A DNA stretch of 60,053 nt from a phage: NCBI GenBank assembly GCA_012409925.1, contig GCA_012409925.1_4804.1. The stretch is one strand, 5' to 3'. Each line of letters opens with the position of its first letter. Positions within the stretch are counted from its first letter, which is position 1. Shown piece by piece: positions 47,804 to 53,565 of the stretch. A program made the translations under genes and the position numbers. Under the pieces are notes generated by a model. It saw only the letters and a list, made by a program, of their open reading frames with translations. It had not been told where the DNA came from and made no database searches.

Positions 47804-47961
47804 TGTTGACGTAAATTTACGAAAAATAAAACTGAAAATCAGTTTAATTAAAGTGGCATTGCCGCCATAGTTTTTAGTTGCTACTGGCGGCGACTGAAGG
47901 CATAATTAAGTTATCCCAAACGGGGAATATAAATAAACTAATTTATTTAAGGACTGTGAAT

Positions 47962-48801
47962 ATGGCCGAAGCAATCAAAGTATTATCTAAAGAAGAAAAA
48001 CAAGCAGCTGCAGCAGAACGTCGTCGCGTGGCTGAAGAAAAACGTCTGGCTAAAAAGAAAGAAGCCGAAGAGAAGCGCCAGAAGCGCGAGCAGGAAAAAC
48101 AAGCCAAGCGTGAAGAAGCTGCGCTGAAGCGCAAACAGGCTGCTGATGAGAAGGCTCAGAAGCGTGCTGAAGAAGCAGCGAAGAAAGCCAAAGAGCGTGC
48201 TGAAAAGGCTGCTGCTAAGAAGGCAGAGCGTGAAGCCGCTAAAGCAGCGAAAGAAATTGAAAAGGCTAAAGCTAAAGAAGAAGCCAAGCGTCTGAAAGCA
48301 GAGCAGGCTGCTGCCAAGAAAGCAGAGCGTGATCAAGCCCGTGCTGCAGCGAAGGCCGAAAAAGAGAAGGCCAAAGAAGAAGCTAAAGCGAAACGCAAAG
48401 CAGAGCGTGAAGCTGCTAAGATTGCGGCGAAAGAAGCTGCGGAAAAGCAGAAAGAACAGCGTAAGAAAGAAGCTGAAGAACGTCGCAAAGCCATCGCAGA
48501 GCGCAAGGCTGCTAAAAAGGCAAACGGTCAGCGTCGTGCAAAAGCCACTCACTTCATCTACACTGGCAATGGCCTGAGCCAGCCGCAAGAGCATTCCACC
48601 CGTGGACGCGTTCTGGCGGCGATCAAAGAAGGCGAAGTTGGCGTGGCGCAGTCTATCGATGAGCTGGGAGAGAAAGTTAAAGATCAACTGTTTGGCGCTT
48701 CCGTTCGCTCCTACCTGAGCAAGCTGGAAGAGATGGGCCACATCGAGTTTGTCGATGTTGAATCCAACGACGATGCCGAAGACGGTGATCAAGCGGAATA
48801 A
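47962..48801 (+). CDS. K/A/E/R-rich low-complexity protein with globular C-terminal ~90 aa
   Basis: ATG 47962 (AAGGA RBS) in track ORF 47878..48801; ~200 aa of EEKRLAKKKEAEEKRQKRE-type repeats; acidic C-terminal tail. Confidence 0.55.
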   Translation: MAEAIKVLSKEEKQAAAAERRRVAEEKRLAKKKEAEEKRQKREQEKQAKREEAALKRKQAADEKAQKRAEEAAKKAKERAEKAAAKKAEREAAKAAKEIEKAKAKEEAKRLKAEQAAAKKAERDQARAAAKAEKEKAKEEAKAKRKAEREAAKIAAKEAAEKQKEQRKKEAEERRKAIAERKAAKKANGQRRAKATHFIYTGNGLSQPQEHSTRGRVLAAIKEGEVGVAQSIDELGEKVKDQLFGASVRSYLSKLEEMGHIEFVDVESNDDAEDGDQAE

Positions 48802-48829: not shown

Positions 48830-48858
48830 GACCCACACTTGTTGTGGGTCTTTTTTCG
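48830..48858 (+). terminator. rho-independent terminator
   Basis: GACCCACA-cttgt-TGTGGGTC followed by TTTTTTCG. Confidence 0.65.
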
Positions 48859-48935: not shown

Positions 48936-49931
48936 ATGAACATGAAACAACCTGTAATGATTATCGGCGGCGGTTTGGCAGGACTTATCACGGCTTGTCA
49001 CTTTCCGAACTCTATTGTGTACGAAGCAGGCGAACGCGTCGCGCAGCACAAGGCGCTGCTACGATTTCGCGGCGAAGAAGTAAGCCGTATTACCGGAATC
49101 CCCTTTAAGGCCGTGACAGTCGATAAGGCTGTGTATTTTCGTGGCAACTACTATCACGACCACTGCCCGATTAACCTTGCCAACATGTACTCTATGAAAG
49201 TCACCAACCAGTTTGGCAGCCGCTCAATCATGAAGCTTCAAACTGCTACGCGCTACATAGCGCCGGATGACTTTTATGATCAACTTGTCGATAAACTGGG
49301 TGACCGTATATTCTTTAATACTCCGGTCGACACGCTTTGCGGCTATAGCGAGACGCCAATCATCAACACATCGCCGCTGCCAGTCATGATGAAGCTTGCT
49401 GGTATTGATCAAAAGCTCGACTTCTCGTTTGATAAGGCAAATATTCGCGTTTATCGTTTTAAGATTAAGCGCAAGTGTGAACTTTATCAAACAATTTACT
49501 TCCCTGACTATTCTGTAAGGACTTACCGCGCATCAATCACTGGTGACACGCTGATCATTGAAACAATTCCATTGGTAAGCGTCAGCGCGGCAGCAGTTGA
49601 AGCCGCTGGCGGCATTACCCGTTATCGCGACATGAAGCTGCGTGCAGAAGTGGATGAAGTTCTTACCGCTTTTGGTCTTTCATGGAATGACATCTCTTTG
49701 GAAGAAGTTGAAAAGGTTGACCAGAAGTATGGCAAAATTGTCGACATTCCGAAAGACTTGCGCCACGCCTTACTGCTCCAGTTGACTATGGATTTGAACG
49801 TATTTAGTGTCGGTCGATTCGCTACTTGGCGAAACATTTTGCTTGATGACGTCGCTCATGACCTTGCTGAAGTTGAAAAACTCATCAAAGCAAATAACTA
49901 TCAAAAATTTGCTTATATTGCTAATAAATAA
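48936..49931 (+). CDS. FAD/NAD(P)-binding Rossmann-fold oxidoreductase, 331 aa
   Basis: N-terminal dinucleotide-binding fingerprint MKQPVMIIGGGLAGL; family not resolved. Confidence 0.5.
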   Translation: MNMKQPVMIIGGGLAGLITACHFPNSIVYEAGERVAQHKALLRFRGEEVSRITGIPFKAVTVDKAVYFRGNYYHDHCPINLANMYSMKVTNQFGSRSIMKLQTATRYIAPDDFYDQLVDKLGDRIFFNTPVDTLCGYSETPIINTSPLPVMMKLAGIDQKLDFSFDKANIRVYRFKIKRKCELYQTIYFPDYSVRTYRASITGDTLIIETIPLVSVSAAAVEAAGGITRYRDMKLRAEVDEVLTAFGLSWNDISLEEVEKVDQKYGKIVDIPKDLRHALLLQLTMDLNVFSVGRFATWRNILLDDVAHDLAEVEKLIKANNYQKFAYIANK

Positions 49932-49996
49932 TTTGCTTTCTGCTTCAATGGGCGTATACTTTAATCATTGAAGCAGAACTCATAGAGGAAACGAAA

Positions 49997-50443
49997 ATGA
50001 AACGCATCACTGGAATCGCGCTTGCCGCGACTGCTATTCTCGGAACCATGTATATGGAAGCGACTGAAGCCGCTGTCCGTACTTCCGATTCAATCGCTGT
50101 TTACGATTGCGAAGCGATGGACGGCAAGACCGCAGCGACGACTGGCGCAACAATTACCACTTACATCGGTGTGAACGAGCAAGAAGGTCTGAATATTCAG
50201 ATTCAGGGATTCACCGGAAAAGGTGCCAACCGGACTCCGTGGATGCAGCGTTTCACTTTCGTTCAGCCTCGTTCAACTGGCGGCTTTATTAACCTGATTG
50301 GGGAAAACCGTTCTGGTGCAGAAATCTTTACATCAATGAGTTCTAATAATGAACCAAAGAAAAGTTTTCAGTTGCTTTATAACGCACAATTCGTTTATCA
50401 TTGCACCTTCTCTGGTGATCAGCAACTAGTGAATTACCGTTAA
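49997..50443 (+). CDS. secreted/periplasmic protein, 148 aa
   Basis: N-terminal signal-peptide-like MKRITGIALAATAILGTMYMEA; two Cys in mature part. Confidence 0.45.
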   Translation: MKRITGIALAATAILGTMYMEATEAAVRTSDSIAVYDCEAMDGKTAATTGATITTYIGVNEQEGLNIQIQGFTGKGANRTPWMQRFTFVQPRSTGGFINLIGENRSGAEIFTSMSSNNEPKKSFQLLYNAQFVYHCTFSGDQQLVNYR

Positions 50444-50456
50444 TAGGATAATTAAA

Positions 50457-51260
50457 ATGAAAGTTGAATTAATTCGATACACCCAAGATGCACTTGACCT
50501 TTTGCTGGAAACAAAGAACACGCGCATGATTGGTAAGCCAGTCTCTGAGATGACAGAATCAGAGAAGCAAGAGCACTGGCGCTACATGCTTGATACAATC
50601 AAGTCGCCTTTTGACTTTGTGGACTATATCTTTGACATCACTGATGTATCAAAGAATATGACTCATCAGATGGTGCGCACACGCACAGGTGCATATCAAG
50701 AACGCACAAGCCGCGCTCAGGAGTCGTCAGCATTTGATGCGATTCGTCCTGCCAAATTTACTTACCCAGAGGATGATCCAAAGGGATGGACTCGTCATGA
50801 CGAGAAGGCTGCTGAACTGGCAGAGAAATGGGATGATGCAATGGCAACCATTGACGCCCTATACCAAGAACTTCGCGCGGCTGGCGCAGAGATTCAAGAT
50901 GCACGTGCCGTGTTGCCTTCTAATATGCAAACGCATATCATGGCAAAGTTCAACTTGCGCACGCTGCAGCAGATGGCGTCAAACCGCTTGTGCACGCGCA
51001 CCCAAGGCGAGTATCAAGAAGTATTCCGCGCAATGGTTGCGGAAGTCCTCAAGGTGCACCCGTGGGCAAATCCACTATTACAGCCGCAATGCATCGGTAT
51101 GGGTAAATGCGCGTTTCCTCGTCATGGCAAAGCCCATTGCCCTTGGTATCGTGATTGGATGGATACCACGGCACAGCAAGAAGAGTTGCGCATCCAGTTT
51201 TGGAGTGCAATGCCAATCACCAACAATCCAGTTGCTAAAGATGGAGTATCAAAAGGATGA
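50457..51260 (+). CDS. thyX: divergent flavin-dependent thymidylate synthase (ThyX)-like protein
   Basis: ...MTHQMVRTRTGAYQERTSRAQES... and ...ARAVLPSNMQTHIMAKFNLRTLQQMASNRLCTRTQGEYQEV... align with ThyX signature blocks, but RHR is RTR and a Cys-rich C-terminal tail is appended. Confidence 0.55.
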   Translation: MKVELIRYTQDALDLLLETKNTRMIGKPVSEMTESEKQEHWRYMLDTIKSPFDFVDYIFDITDVSKNMTHQMVRTRTGAYQERTSRAQESSAFDAIRPAKFTYPEDDPKGWTRHDEKAAELAEKWDDAMATIDALYQELRAAGAEIQDARAVLPSNMQTHIMAKFNLRTLQQMASNRLCTRTQGEYQEVFRAMVAEVLKVHPWANPLLQPQCIGMGKCAFPRHGKAHCPWYRDWMDTTAQQEELRIQFWSAMPITNNPVAKDGVSKG

Positions 51261-52132
51261 GCATTAAAAACAGCGAAATCTTAAACGTATTCGACCTTGA
51301 CGGAACGCTGTTTGATGACCGTTGGCGCTTAGACCGCATCAAGGTGGCAGGTCCGTTGTCAGACTATGATGACTATCACAGCGGTATTGGTTATGATCAG
51401 TTCTATCCTCACATTGCATCAGCAGTAGAGTCGGCATCTCTTCGCGGTGAGGCGGTTGAATATTGGACTGCAAGGCCAGAAAAATACAGACAAGTGACTT
51501 TTGAACGTCTAGACAATGTTTTCCCTTTTGATGAATTTACAATCAAGATGAGAGACTATGGCGACAAACGTCCATCAACTATTATGAAATCTGCATGGCT
51601 ATCGCACGCTTTGCGGCACGGCGATTATCGAATCATCAATGTATTCGACGACCGACAAGACGTACTCGCGCGGATGCAAGAAGAAGCTTTGCACTATAAT
51701 TCCATGGCGCAAAATAAAATCGCCTTTACATTTAATCTTTGCAAGGCAGGTGAAGTGGTGCAACAATTAGCAGTTGATCCAAGTGCAACAGGGAAAGAAG
51801 AGACTAAACTTGTTGAAGTTGAACAACAAGCCCCAGCAACCGCTGCTGATATTCTTGATGCGATGGCCGCGACCTTCCGTGAGCGCAATGCCGTTTATGG
51901 CGATAACGCTGTGATGGTAGGTCAGGTTATGCAGGTGTTGTTCCCTAATGGCGTAACTTTGAAGACACCGGAAGACTACCACATGTGGCATCTGTTCGAG
52001 CTTAAGATTGTCAAGCTTACACGCTTCGCAATCAGCGGCCTGAAGCACGAAGACTCAATACACGACGATGGTGTTTATAGCGCCATGTGTGAACGTCTTG
52101 TTAACACCCATAATATTAATTTCAATAAATAG
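51257..52132 (+). CDS. HAD-superfamily phosphatase-like protein
   Basis: N-terminal motif I ...VFDLDGTLFD...; ATGA overlap with ThyX-like gene. Confidence 0.55.
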   Translation: MSIKNSEILNVFDLDGTLFDDRWRLDRIKVAGPLSDYDDYHSGIGYDQFYPHIASAVESASLRGEAVEYWTARPEKYRQVTFERLDNVFPFDEFTIKMRDYGDKRPSTIMKSAWLSHALRHGDYRIINVFDDRQDVLARMQEEALHYNSMAQNKIAFTFNLCKAGEVVQQLAVDPSATGKEETKLVEVEQQAPATAADILDAMAATFRERNAVYGDNAVMVGQVMQVLFPNGVTLKTPEDYHMWHLFELKIVKLTRFAISGLKHEDSIHDDGVYSAMCERLVNTHNINFNK

Positions 52133-52161
52133 TTTACTTGTGCGTTTCGATGAGTTATATT
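52133..52161 (+). promoter_or_regulatory. candidate sigma70-type promoter with conserved hairpin/leader (copy A)
   Basis: TTTACT, 17-nt spacer, TATATT; spacer and leader GATGAGTTATATTTACCTCATCGAAACGAA nearly identical to element at 58976-59006. Confidence 0.45.
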
Positions 52162-52197
52162 TACCTCATCGAAACGAAGTCCAAAAAGGATAAATAA

Positions 52198-52881
52198 ATG
52201 AAAAAAGTAATTGTTGTAACAGGTTCCAATTCCGGTCTTGGTAAATCTATTTTTGACACCCTTGGCGCTTACGGTCATAACGTGCTTGGCATCGATTCAG
52301 CATACGGACATGACGTCCGCGATGCTAAACAGATGAAAGAAATTTTAAGCCCATATGATGTTGAAGGCTTGATCAACTGTGCTGGTGTCAACTCTAACAA
52401 TTGGTTTGAAGATGTAAACTATGAAGAGTTTAACCGCGTTATGCACACCAACGCATTCTCTTTCGTTAACACGACTCAGGCTGCGCTGAAAAGTCTTATC
52501 GACAACAAAGGCTTTGTGATCAACATCGTTTCCAACGCTGCGCATATTCCTATGACGTCCAGCTTGTGTTATAATGCATCCAAGGCCGCTGCGCTTATGA
52601 TCAGCAAGCAGATGGCTCACGAACTTACGCCTAAGTACGGCATCACGGTATTCTCTATTAGTCCTAACAAGTTACGCGGCACTGGCATGTCTAAACAGAT
52701 TGAAGATGCCGTTTGTGCGACTCGCGGCTGGACTCCTGAATACGCTGCTGAATACCAGAAAAAGGCATTGATGAACGGATTGGAGACTGAGCCGCAAGTA
52801 ATTGCTGACTTCATTCGCCATATCTTAATTACGGGCGCATGGCGCTTTATGTCTGGTACTGATATTCCATTTGGTAAATAA
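52198..52881 (+). CDS. short-chain dehydrogenase/reductase (SDR)
   Basis: Cofactor motif VVTGSNSGLGKS and catalytic Y-x3-K (YNASKAA); 227 aa. Confidence 0.65.
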   Translation: MKKVIVVTGSNSGLGKSIFDTLGAYGHNVLGIDSAYGHDVRDAKQMKEILSPYDVEGLINCAGVNSNNWFEDVNYEEFNRVMHTNAFSFVNTTQAALKSLIDNKGFVINIVSNAAHIPMTSSLCYNASKAAALMISKQMAHELTPKYGITVFSISPNKLRGTGMSKQIEDAVCATRGWTPEYAAEYQKKALMNGLETEPQVIADFIRHILITGAWRFMSGTDIPFGK

Positions 52882-52971: not shown

Positions 52972-53523
52972 ATGCCACATTTTAAAATTGAACAAATCGC
53001 CCTGTCAATTCCAGGTGCTCAGCGCGCACAGAATTTCCTGGCTAAAATCGGCCTGACAGAATGGTTCCATGATCACGTTGTTGCTACTGGTCGCGTATTT
53101 GAAGCTGATGTCTTTAAGGGTCAGCGCGGCGATTGCACCAACGAAGCTGACTTGCGCTTCAACTATCAGGCTGGCAACGGCACCGATGGCGGCGCTGGTA
53201 AGCCTCTTGAGCTTGAAATTCTTGACTATACAAAAGGTTGCAACTGGATTCACGAAAACATCGAATACATCGATGCGCACGACAATCAGGTTAGCCATCT
53301 TGGTATGCACGTGACTGCCGCTGAACTTGCTGAATGGCGCAAGTTCTTTAAAGAAGAAGGCATTCAGGTTGCGCAGGAAGTTGTGACCGACTCTCACACC
53401 AACCCAAACATTGCTGGTCAGCGTCGTTACAACTATGTGATCTTTGATACGCGTGAAATCATTGGTGTCGACCTTAAGTTCATCGTGCGGTTGAATCAAG
53501 ACGGTACTCCGTACACTGTATAA
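52972..53523 (+). CDS. hypothetical protein, 183 aa (VOC/glyoxalase-like candidate)
   Basis: ORF track; weak resemblance to vicinal-oxygen-chelate fold (HxGxxV, conserved Glu); low confidence. Confidence 0.3.
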   Translation: MPHFKIEQIALSIPGAQRAQNFLAKIGLTEWFHDHVVATGRVFEADVFKGQRGDCTNEADLRFNYQAGNGTDGGAGKPLELEILDYTKGCNWIHENIEYIDAHDNQVSHLGMHVTAAELAEWRKFFKEEGIQVAQEVVTDSHTNPNIAGQRRYNYVIFDTREIIGVDLKFIVRLNQDGTPYTV

Positions 53524-53539
53524 CGAATCGTGAATCTGT

Positions 53540-53565
53540 GGCCGTCCTAATGGGCGGCCTTTTTG
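53540..53565 (+). terminator. rho-independent terminator
   Basis: GGCCGTCC-taat-GGGCGGCC followed by TTTTTG. Confidence 0.55.

What the first reader, a model, noticed from the sequence alone, without database searches (positions are those of the whole stretch)
50457..51260. ThyX-like enzyme with RHR motif changed to RTR and a Cys-rich C-terminal tail
The two ThyX signature blocks are recognisable, but the substrate-phosphate-binding RHR is RTR and the protein ends with an extra ...CIGMGKCAFPRHGKAHCPWYRDW... segment. A divergent active site could mean altered substrate or product (for example a modified pyrimidine nucleotide) rather than plain dTMP synthesis.
Basis: partly seen in the sequence, partly recalled or inferred. 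Interest (0 to 1): 0.6.

Follow-up and report, generated by a model that had tools for sequence, protein, structure and literature searches.

The report
Phage ThyX variant with flavoprotein partner
This gene encodes a divergent but probably working flavin-dependent thymidylate synthase of an E. coli phage; the "odd" RTR motif is a common natural variant, while its four-cysteine tail and an always-adjacent flavoprotein gene are real, uncharacterised features of a whole phage subfamily.

Summary
ORF 50457..51260 (267 aa) has a ThyX fold, R-T-R replaces R-H-R, and a Cys-rich extension of about 60 aa follows the core.

- **RTR motif:** the His position belongs to the FAD-binding motif. It varies freely among orthologues (T 144, H 57, S 10, N 8 of 223 sequences; at least 27 switches on a rough tree). 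All of these variants share the same gene context. The four catalytic arginines are invariant.
- **Cys tail:** its three cysteines plus Cys179 of the core form an all-or-none four-Cys unit (123 all, 94 none, 6 partial), which I read as a metal site. The same unit occurs in RHR-type ThyX on bacterial chromosomal contigs, so it does not mark altered chemistry.

**New finding:** this phage subfamily almost always (110 of 111 loci) has a ~330-aa flavoprotein gene with a UDP-galactopyranose-mutase-like fold upstream. A HAD phosphatase and a small unknown domain usually lie downstream. In the window, two terminator-like hairpins bracket this cassette.

**Most likely function:** dUMP-to-dTMP synthesis for phage replication (confidence about 0.6). 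A modified-base product is not excluded. Wifcevirus resistance to restriction has no known explanation.

The parts
50457..51260 (+). ThyX-like flavin-dependent thymidylate synthase gene (267 aa)
   Evidence: Pfam Thy1 E 2e-30. AF2 pLDDT 90 with Foldseek top hit 1o26. 99% identical to Wifcevirus proteins annotated as thymidylate synthase.
50676..50714 (+). Variant ThyX motif R74-T75-R76-x7-T84-S85-R86, in place of RHR-x7-S-G-R
   Evidence: Alignment to T. maritima ThyX. RTR is invariant in 109 homologues. The middle residue is labile across the clade.
50991..50993 (+). Cys179 in the core motif R177-L-C179 (position of T. maritima D176), the first of four co-conserved cysteines
   Evidence: Invariant. 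Co-occurs all-or-none with C212, C218 and C228. hhalign equivalence to the RLC of RHR-type bacterial/MAG ThyX.
51069..51257 (+). C-terminal extension (residues about 205-267) carrying C212, C218 and C228 (nt 51090-51140) and the conserved NPVAKDGxS end
   Evidence: Invariant Cys and the CAFPR motif. pLDDT 94-96 over residues 201-250. No PDB homologue.
48936..49931 (+). Partner gene: 331-aa predicted FAD-binding protein (phrog_4828, GxGxxG at residues 11-16)
49997..50443 (+). 148-aa ORF with a signal-peptide-like N-terminus, inserted between the partner gene and thyX
   Evidence: ORF list. No Pfam, PHROG or NCBIfam hit. It was not among the recurrent gene clusters of the related loci.
51257..52132 (+). 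HAD phosphatase of the PNKP type (aa 1-180) fused to a conserved domain of about 110 aa and unknown function (aa 181-291, nt 51797-52129); its start overlaps the thyX stop
   Evidence: PF25109 E 6e-8 and phrog_4889. Of 106 loci with enough downstream sequence, 78 have the HAD domain and 81 the small domain. The small domain has no Pfam or PDB match.
52198..52881 (+). Short-chain dehydrogenase/reductase (227 aa)
   Evidence: adh_short E 5e-31. The same family is present in 60 of about 155 related loci.
52972..53523 (+). 183-aa protein with a weak glyoxalase/VOC-like match
   Evidence: Glyoxalase_4 E 0.09 only. Homologues occur in 43 related loci.
48830..48856 (+). Terminator-like hairpin with a T-run just upstream of the partner gene
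   Evidence: 8-bp stem followed by TTTTTT. Pbunavirus DP1 has an annotated terminator at the equivalent place.
53540..53565 (+). Terminator-like hairpin with a T-run just after the VOC-like gene, closing the cassette
   Evidence: 8-bp stem with 7 GC pairs, followed by TTTTT.

Best explanation
The gene encodes a working ThyX-family flavoenzyme of a phage-specific subfamily. It most likely still converts dUMP to dTMP, using methylene-tetrahydrofolate and reduced FAD, to feed replication of the phage. The window is 93-97% identical in DNA to Wifcevirus phages over 49900-52200, and the gene sits in the replication module. Thr75 replaces the His of the FAD-phosphate-binding RHR motif; this is a tolerated, recurrent substitution and not a functional switch. 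Cys179 in the core, together with Cys212, Cys218 and Cys228 in the extension, most likely bind one metal centre (structural Zn or an Fe-S cluster). That centre would clamp the extension onto the helix carrying the catalytic Arg177. This feature is inherited from an older ThyX lineage that also includes bacterial chromosomal enzymes. The enzyme belongs to a co-transcribed cassette: partner flavoprotein, ThyX, HAD phosphatase with a small domain, SDR, and a VOC-like protein. I infer that the UGM-like flavoprotein acts with ThyX, for instance in keeping or delivering reduced flavin. Shown here: fold, motif states, conservation, co-occurrence and cassette anatomy. Inferred: metal binding, the dTMP product and the role of the partner.
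For: - **ThyX fold and domain:**
- **Catalytic arginines:** R74, R86, R150 and R177 are invariant across a 43-sequence alignment spanning 26-60% identity.
- **His position is labile:** T 144, H 57, S 10, N 8 of 223 sequences, with at least 27 parsimony changes. Switches occur between sequences 58-65% identical.
- **Same context for all motif states:** RHR, RTR, RSR, RNR and RVR members all have the partner upstream (110 of 111 loci).
- **Four-Cys unit:** all-or-none (123, 94 and 6). hhalign aligns C179, C212 and C218 with the RLC...C...C of RHR-type proteins (prob 99.9).
- **Cellular relatives:** the RHR-type proteins lie on bacterial genome contigs (Gastranaerophilales/Melainabacteria, Chloroflexota, Armatimonadota). 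Representatives of that type score 156-178 bits on TIGR02170, like the canonical RHR-type ThyX of phage L5 (gp48), 175 bits.
- **Replication and dNTP context:** the gene lies among primase, helicase, exonuclease and polymerase genes. In Rhizobium phage TM30 the same module sits beside dUTPase and ribonucleotide reductase.
- **Cassette anatomy:** terminator-like hairpins bracket it, and the thyX stop overlaps the HAD start.
- **No obligatory DNA modification for infectivity:** a close relative, vB_Eco4M-7, is PCR-amplifiable and reboots from PCR fragments (PMC11074155).
Against: - No member of this subfamily has been tested biochemically or genetically, as far as my literature searches reached.
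- The protein scores just below the curated thyX equivalog cutoff (82.7 against 87.9).
- The equivalents of T. maritima H53 (which, from memory, stacks on folate), H59, H79 and Y91 are replaced by I, F, T and A.
- A strictly conserved extra flavoprotein and a phosphatase are not needed by known ThyX enzymes.
- Wifcevirus phages resist all tested restriction systems except EcoP1_I with no known protection mechanism (PMC11990801), and the window does carry 13 EcoRI, 5 EcoRV and 7 EcoKI sites.
Confidence: 0.6

Rival explanations
1. The ThyX-like enzyme, with its UGM-like flavoprotein partner and the downstream phosphatase, SDR and VOC-like proteins, makes a C5-modified pyrimidine nucleotide instead of, or as well as, dTMP. 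One route would be trapping the exocyclic methylene intermediate with water to give 5-hydroxymethyl-dUMP. The product would enter phage DNA and protect it from restriction.
For: [quoted passage not shown]
- The restriction sites are present in the genome.
- The subfamily lacks several histidines and the tyrosine of canonical ThyX, and sits at or below the equivalog cutoff.
- A five- to six-gene enzyme cassette is conserved around the gene and bracketed by terminator-like hairpins.
- A MazG-like pyrophosphatase is encoded elsewhere in the close relative Bas98 and near the module in L088.
- From my own knowledge, acid trapping of ThyX intermediates yields 5-hydroxymethyl-dUMP, so the chemistry is accessible.
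Against: - No nucleotide kinase, glycosyl- or aminoacyl-transferase, or other known hypermodification gene is annotated in the close relative Bas98.
- The same cassette is present in all 292 matching Pseudomonas phage records (mostly Pbunavirus), a heavily studied group for which my limited searches found no DNA modification reported. JG024 DNA is cut by SacII, but that site has no T, so the test is weak.
- vB_Eco4M-7 DNA amplifies by PCR and reboots from unmodified fragments.
- Restriction resistance can equally come from one of the many unannotated early proteins.
- In Rhizobium phage TM30 the module lies beside dUTPase and ribonucleotide reductase, an ordinary dNTP-supply context.
Confidence: 0.13
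2. The enzyme is a thymidylate synthase that has become a two-component system. The subfamily would have lost direct NAD(P)H oxidation, and the UGM/renalase-like flavoprotein would be its obligatory reductase. Where present, the four-Cys centre would be an Fe-S relay to the ThyX flavin.
For: - Partner linkage is near-universal and mostly immediately adjacent (81 of 111 loci within 1.5 kb).
- The partner has an FAD-binding fold with NAD(P)H-using relatives such as renalase and UGM-NADPH complexes among its hits.
- The His that stacks on folate/NADPH in T. maritima (H53, from memory) is Ile, Val or Leu in the clade.
- Cys179 lies two residues from the catalytic Arg177 and the flavin-contacting position 181.
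Against: - 35 partner-linked loci lack the Cys unit altogether, so an Fe-S relay cannot be general.
- RHR-type four-Cys ThyX on bacterial contigs have no partner within 3 kb.
- No partner-ThyX fusion was found; the only apparent one, P0208, looks like a truncated chimera.
- The adjacency may partly reflect inheritance of a whole shared replication module.
- The cysteine spacing (C-x32-C-x5-C-x9 or more-C) does not distinguish Zn from Fe-S.
Confidence: 0.2
3. The protein is catalytically dead or regulatory, a ThyX fold kept for binding and not for catalysis.
For: The canonical His of RHR, the motif Ser and Y91 are all changed, and the score is below the equivalog cutoff.
Against: The four arginines that bind and activate dUMP, as well as Q71, are conserved across hundreds of sequences under evident purifying selection. 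Inteins are inserted in some homologues; from my own knowledge, inteins typically sit in active, essential enzymes.
Confidence: 0.04

Closest known systems
Canonical flavin-dependent thymidylate synthase ThyX (Thermotoga maritima TM0449, M. tuberculosis ThyX, PBCV-1 A674R, mycobacteriophage L5 gp48)
   Same: Same fold and Pfam domain. The equivalents of R78, R80, R90, R147, R174, Q75 and E86 are conserved. Like L5 gp48, it is a phage gene in a replication and nucleotide-metabolism region.
   Different: H79 is Thr, S88 is Thr, and H53, H59 and Y91 are Ile, Phe and Ala. It has an extra ~60-aa C-terminal extension with a four-Cys unit. It scores below the TIGR02170 cutoff, whereas L5 gp48 scores 175 bits. 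A conserved flavoprotein gene lies upstream; this was not found next to the RHR-type bacterial ThyX or L5 gp48.
RHR-type four-Cys ThyX on genome contigs of Gastranaerophilales/Melainabacteria, Chloroflexota and Armatimonadota (uncharacterised, no solved structure)
   Same: They share the R-L-C...P-x-C-x3-G-x-C...C signature in equivalent positions.
   Different: They keep H53, H59, RHR and Y91 (HSEH...RHR...SQRY), score 156-178 bits on TIGR02170, have a shorter tail, and have no partner gene within 3 kb.
PolB, the ThyX-like UMP C5-methylase of polyoxin biosynthesis (PDB 4p5a)
   Same: A ThyX-fold enzyme diverted to a non-dTMP product within a multi-enzyme cluster, so it is a precedent for neofunctionalisation. 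Its function is from my own knowledge.
   Different: It gives no detectable specific similarity. 4p5a is not among the PDB sequence hits of the window protein at E up to 1, whereas T. maritima and M. tuberculosis ThyX are.
ThyA-family dUMP hydroxymethylases of phages with hypermodified thymidine (SPO1, M6, ViI; PMC8989533)
   Different: They have an unrelated fold (ThyA, not ThyX). Those phages also carry 5-hmdU kinases and transferases, which are not annotated in the close relative Bas98.
UDP-galactopyranose mutase / protoporphyrinogen oxidase flavoproteins (for the partner protein)
   Different: It has only 331 aa, against 365-510 for those enzymes. It has no Pfam GLF or amine-oxidase hit at E up to 0.1 and 11-17% identity. 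Its context is nucleotide metabolism, not glycan synthesis.

Membership tests
ThyX / Thy1 (flavin-dependent thymidylate synthase, PF02511) | Thy1 domain and fold | tested here: met
   Pfam 106 bits against a cutoff of 24.8. Foldseek top hits are all ThyX structures, TM 0.75 on the target.
ThyX / Thy1 (flavin-dependent thymidylate synthase, PF02511) | Literal ThyX motif RHR-x7-S | tested here: not met
   The sequence is RTR-x7-T. However, the His position is T, H, S, N, V or Q among clear orthologues, so the literal motif is too narrow for this clade.
ThyX / Thy1 (flavin-dependent thymidylate synthase, PF02511) | Arginines that bind or activate dUMP and contact the flavin (T. maritima R78, R90, R147, R174) | tested here: met
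   R74, R86, R150 and R177 are invariant in 43 diverse sequences and in 109 close ones.
ThyX / Thy1 (flavin-dependent thymidylate synthase, PF02511) | Curated equivalog score (TIGR02170 at or above 87.9 bits) | tested here: not met
   82.7 bits. Clade relatives score 86-98 bits, and canonical-type proteins (RHR four-Cys and L5 gp48) 156-178. This is a marginal failure.
ThyX / Thy1 (flavin-dependent thymidylate synthase, PF02511) | Histidine that stacks on folate/NADPH (T. maritima H53) and active-site Tyr91 | tested here: not met
   I48 and A87. The roles of these residues are from my own knowledge and from PDB entry titles (H53A and H53D; Y91F).
ThyX / Thy1 (flavin-dependent thymidylate synthase, PF02511) | FAD-bound homotetramer that converts dUMP, CH2-THF and NADPH to dTMP; complements thyA | not testable with these tools
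   This needs complementation and enzyme assays. I found no published test of any Pbunavirus or Wifcevirus ThyX.
Four-Cys ThyX subgroup (defined here) | R-L-C in the core plus C-x5-C and a fourth Cys in a C-terminal extension, co-occurring all-or-none | tested here: met
   C179, C212, C218 and C228 are invariant. Counts are CCCC 123, none 94, partial 6. hhalign shows equivalence for the first three Cys.
Four-Cys ThyX subgroup (defined here) | The cysteines bind a metal (Zn or Fe-S) | not testable with these tools
   No model coordinates are available for measuring distances and there is no solved homologue. This is inferred from co-conservation and from the high pLDDT of the extension.
Phage nucleotide hypermodification pathways (5-hmdU-derived) | A hydroxymethylase together with a 5-hmdU DNA kinase, transferases or other tailoring enzymes | tested here: not met
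   None is annotated in the close relative Bas98. The cassette neighbours are FAD-fold, HAD, SDR and VOC-like proteins only.
Phage nucleotide hypermodification pathways (5-hmdU-derived) | Non-canonical base present in virion DNA | not testable with these tools
   There are only indirect data: restriction resistance set against PCR amplification and rebooting from PCR fragments.

The most novel reading that the evidence does not exclude
The partner-linked phage ThyX subfamily is not a plain thymidylate synthase. Instead it would be the core of a new multi-enzyme pathway (UGM-like flavoprotein, ThyX-like methylene transferase, HAD phosphatase, small unknown domain, sometimes SDR and VOC-like proteins). 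This pathway would make a C5-modified pyrimidine nucleotide for phage DNA and so explain the unexplained restriction resistance of Wifcevirus phages. It would be the first ThyX-fold, flavin-N5-based route to a modified DNA base.
Probability: 0.12. Interest if true: 0.85.

Novelty: new variant of a known kind. Interest (0 to 1): 0.5.

Why it matters
ThyX is an antibacterial drug target and a model for covalent flavin-N5 catalysis, yet every solved or assayed ThyX that I could find belongs to the canonical RHR type without the Cys unit.

- **A large uncharacterised subfamily.** This gene represents hundreds of sequences, including all 292 matching Pseudomonas phage records (mostly the therapeutically used Pbunavirus). 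The subfamily dispenses with three "conserved" histidines and often carries an undescribed four-cysteine centre. It is almost always paired with a dedicated flavoprotein of unknown function.
- **If the pair works together,** ThyX chemistry has a partner-dependent form that has not been described.
- **If the product is not dTMP,** it could explain why Wifcevirus phages escape restriction.
- **A caution for annotation.** "Motif broken" here does not mean "function changed".

Tried and rejected
- **RTR as a marker of a new function: rejected.** RHR, RSR, RNR and RVR orthologues share the same context, and the position switches many times.
- **Cys tail as a phage-specific novelty: rejected.** The same unit occurs in RHR-type ThyX on bacterial genome contigs.
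- **Partner linkage specific to RTR:** this was my own interim idea. The control scan with RHR-type phage ThyX rejected it.
- **PolB-like UMP methylase:** no specific similarity.
- **Domain fusions as functional clues:** long homologues carry inteins or a GIY-YIG-like N-terminus, not partner fusions. P0208 looks like a truncated chimera.
- **Identity of the ~110-aa domain after the HAD phosphatase:** no Pfam hit, and PDB profile hits are only at chance level (POU domains, E 0.03-0.3).
- **Sequence-only searches of the partner and HAD proteins against the PDB:** nothing.
- **Literature:** searches for ThyX with Fe-S, zinc or cysteines, for phage ThyX complementation, and for Pbunavirus ThyX function found no characterisation of this subfamily. 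The De Smet 2016 metabolomics paper and the Ulmer 2008 mutagenesis paper are not held.
- **Restriction-site avoidance as the cause of RM resistance:** not supported for EcoRI, EcoRV or EcoKI, whose sites are present.
- **Cys-Cys distances in the model:** could not be measured, because coordinates are not exposed.
Full report
**1. What is there**

ORF 50457..51260 on the + strand encodes 267 aa. An AGGA lies about 9 nt before the ATG, and the TGA stop overlaps the ATG of the next gene (ATGA), which suggests translational coupling.

- The protein matches Pfam Thy1 (E 2.1e-30, residues 6-203) and PHROG 85 'thymidylate synthase'.
- By sequence it matches T. maritima, M. tuberculosis and other ThyX structures.
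- An AlphaFold2 model built on 109 homologues has mean pLDDT 90.1. Its best PDB matches are all ThyX, led by 1o26 (E 2e-10, TM 0.75 on the target).
- Over 49900-52200 the window is 93-97% identical in DNA to Wifcevirus phages of E. coli (Bas98-101, WFC, WFH, vB_Eco4M-7).
- The gene lies in the replication module, between a Dda-like helicase and the exonuclease and DNA polymerase genes.

**2. The motif**

Aligned to T. maritima ThyX, the equivalences are:

| T. maritima | Window protein |
|---|---|
| H53 | I48 |
| T55 | S50 |
| E58 | D53 |
| H59 | F54 |
| R74 | H70 |
| Q75 | Q71 |
| R78-H79-R80 | R74-T75-R76 |
| E86 | E82 |
| S88 | T84 |
| R90 | R86 |
| Y91 | A87 |
| R147 | R150 |
| R174 | R177 |
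| D176 | C179 |
| H178 | R181 |

According to a review of ThyX structures, however, the RHR motif mainly hydrogen-bonds the AMP phosphate, ribityl and FMN phosphate of FAD, with the first Arg on the isoalloxazine (PMC6514825). It is not primarily the substrate-phosphate site.

- RTR is invariant in 109 homologues of 57-99% identity.
- Among 150 representatives of the wider family, the middle residue is T, H, S, Q or N.
- In a set of 223 non-redundant sequences it is T 144, H 57, S 10, N 8. A neighbour-joining tree requires at least 27 changes.
- Switches are seen between sequences only 58-65% identical.
- R74, R86, R150 and R177 are invariant across a 43-sequence alignment spanning 26-60% identity.

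The position is therefore labile in a family that otherwise keeps the catalytic arginines.

**3. The Cys-rich tail**

Four cysteines are invariant in the close family: C179, inside the core motif R177-L-C179, and C212, C218 and C228 in the extension. Across 223 sequences they are all present in 123, all absent in 94 and partial in 6, some of which are fragments. That pattern indicates one functional unit. The extension is modelled with pLDDT 94-96.

- The same signature occurs in proteins that otherwise look fully canonical (HSEH...RHR...SQRY).
- A scan of one genome per prokaryotic species returned 80 such loci, and 79 carry RHR plus the four Cys; the 80th is cut by the contig end.
- These loci are on genome contigs, one up to 1.3 Mb, of Gastranaerophilales/Melainabacteria, Chloroflexota, Armatimonadota and others.
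- Profile-profile alignment puts C179, C212 and C218 in register with the corresponding cysteines of that type (probability 99.9%).
- Representatives of that type score 156-178 bits on the NCBIfam thyX equivalog, like the canonical RHR-type ThyX of mycobacteriophage L5 (gp48, 175 bits). The window protein scores 82.7 and its clade 86-98, against a cutoff of 87.9.
- No PDB entry contains the four-Cys unit or a homologue of the extension.
- My literature searches for ThyX with iron-sulfur, zinc or cysteines found nothing.

I infer a metal centre, either Zn or Fe-S. The spacing C-x32-C-x5-C-x9 or more-C is not diagnostic, and I could not measure distances because model coordinates are not exposed.

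**4. An unexpected conserved partner**

A distantly related metagenomic phage contig (ThyX 39% identical, RTR, no Cys) has the same local gene order as the window. A ~330-aa protein comes first, then ThyX, then a PNKP-type HAD phosphatase, with a MazG-like gene nearby. Its 328-aa protein is 31% identical over its full length to the window ORF 48936..49931 (E 3e-31). Pbunavirus DP1 has the same order.

I scanned IMG/VR with two profiles, one dominated by RTR members and one made only of RHR members, and analysed 123 unique loci.

- Of 111 loci with at least 1.5 kb upstream, 110 have the partner upstream on the same strand, 81 of them within 1.5 kb.
- This holds for T with four Cys (40 loci), T without Cys (35), H with four Cys (27), S (4), N (2) and V (1).
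- Downstream, among 106 loci with enough sequence, 78 have the HAD phosphatase. 81 have a ~110-aa domain that in the window is fused to the HAD protein (aa 181-291).
- That small domain has no Pfam or PDB match. Its invariant residues are Y, K, R, D, S, D, Y.
- Among sequenced isolates, the partner and ThyX hit counts coincide: Pseudomonas 292 and 292, Escherichia 27 and 27, Serratia 9 and 9.
- The partner is absent (no hit at E up to 10) from the 80 bacterial RHR four-Cys loci and from the phage L5 region.
- The partner has no Pfam or NCBIfam hit. It models confidently (pLDDT 89) as a two-domain FAD-binding protein.

In the window, two terminator-like hairpins with T-runs lie at 48830-48856 and 53540-53565. 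They bracket exactly the partner gene, a 148-aa ORF, thyX, the HAD/small-domain gene, an SDR and a VOC-like gene. The SDR and VOC-like families recur in 60 and 43 of about 155 related loci.

Caveats:
- The loci also share polymerase, exonuclease, helicase and primase genes, so part of the linkage may be inherited synteny of a common replication module.
- ORFs were called naively.
- Loci were selected by similarity to the queries.

**5. How it most likely works**

The simplest reading that fits all of this is a genuine thymidylate synthase of a divergent, phage-specific ThyX subfamily. Thr75 would be a tolerated replacement at an FAD-phosphate contact. The tail would complete an ancestral metal site.

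The context agrees with dNTP supply. The gene is in the replication module here. In Rhizobium phage TM30 the same module (RNR variant) lies next to dUTPase and ribonucleotide reductase.

I put this at about 0.6. A variant of it is that the UGM/renalase-like flavoprotein is an obligatory reductase, with the Cys centre as an Fe-S relay where present. I put that at about 0.2. It is weakened by the 35 partner-linked loci without cysteines and by the partner-less bacterial four-Cys enzymes.

**6. The modified-base idea**

This idea is not excluded.
- The window does contain 13 EcoRI, 5 EcoRV and 7 EcoKI sites.

Several points count against it.
- No kinase or transferase of known hypermodification pathways is annotated in the close relative Bas98.
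- The cassette is shared with the intensively studied Pbunavirus phages.
- vB_Eco4M-7 DNA is PCR-amplifiable, and the phage reboots from PCR fragments (PMC11074155).
- Many unannotated early genes could encode anti-restriction proteins.

I put this reading at about 0.12-0.13.

**7. Comparison with what is known, and novelty**

The protein meets the fold and catalytic-arginine criteria of ThyX. It fails the literal RHR-x7-S motif and, narrowly, the curated equivalog score. It also lacks H53 and Y91.

It is best filed as a new variant of a known kind. It belongs to a phage ThyX subfamily defined by I/V/L at H53, F at H59 and a free residue at H79, often with a four-Cys centre, and with a linked UGM-like flavoprotein. 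None of these subfamily features appeared in the literature I could search.

The Cys unit and the partner are the parts worth experimental follow-up.

Noticed in passing
window 1-60053: GATC is strongly depleted (93 observed against 242 ± 15 expected from first-order Markov simulations), and BamHI sites (GGATCC) are absent (0 against 7.7). EcoRI, EcoRV and EcoKI sites are present at or somewhat below expectation. CAGCAG and AAGCTT are about twofold over-represented.
   Followed up: partly
window 47878-48801 (+): ORF encoding a protein whose first two-thirds is an extreme Lys/Ala/Glu-rich low-complexity stretch (KAAAEKAKKEA-type), followed by a short globular C-terminus. It ends just before the terminator-like hairpin at 48830. 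An ORF at the equivalent position exists in Pbunavirus DP1 (gp67). It may be a histone-like or DNA-coating protein.
   Followed up: no
window 49997-50443 (+): 148-aa ORF with a signal-peptide-like N-terminus (MKRITGIALAATAILGTMYMEATEA) inserted between the partner gene and thyX. It has no family hit in Pfam, PHROGs or NCBIfam. It looks like a moron inside the cassette.
   Followed up: partly
window 51797-52129 (+), and standalone ORFs such as L088:9314-9646: A ~110-aa domain (consensus TFrERNkvYGdNy..G.vM.aLFPnG..L.T..D......KLTR.a.....H.DSihD..VYaaM) follows thyX in 81 of 106 phage loci. It is either fused to the HAD phosphatase or encoded alone. It has no Pfam or PDB match.
   Followed up: partly
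window 52198-52881 and 52972-53523 (+): An SDR oxidoreductase and a weakly VOC/glyoxalase-like protein sit between the nucleotide genes and the DNA polymerase. Homologues recur in 60 and 43 of about 155 related phage loci, so they are not Wifcevirus-specific morons. Their substrates are unknown.
   Followed up: partly
homologues P0156, P0168, P0269: Several ThyX homologues of this family are interrupted by inteins (Intein_splicing or Hint domains). P0160 has an N-terminal extension that by eye resembles a GIY-YIG homing endonuclease.
   Followed up: no
Bas98 record PQ850608 30470-31063 (beyond the window end) and L088:3051-3404: A MazG-like / dATP-dGTP pyrophosphohydrolase-like gene is present in the Wifcevirus genome, next to the DNA ligase, and near the ThyX module in an unrelated phage contig. 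Its nucleotide specificity could bear on whether a canonical dNTP is excluded.
   Followed up: no
related loci, e.g. L157:3195-3713: A pyrimidine-dimer DNA glycosylase-like ORF (Pyr_excise, E 1e-4, right at the cutoff) recurs in 45 of the related phage loci near the ThyX module.
   Followed up: no
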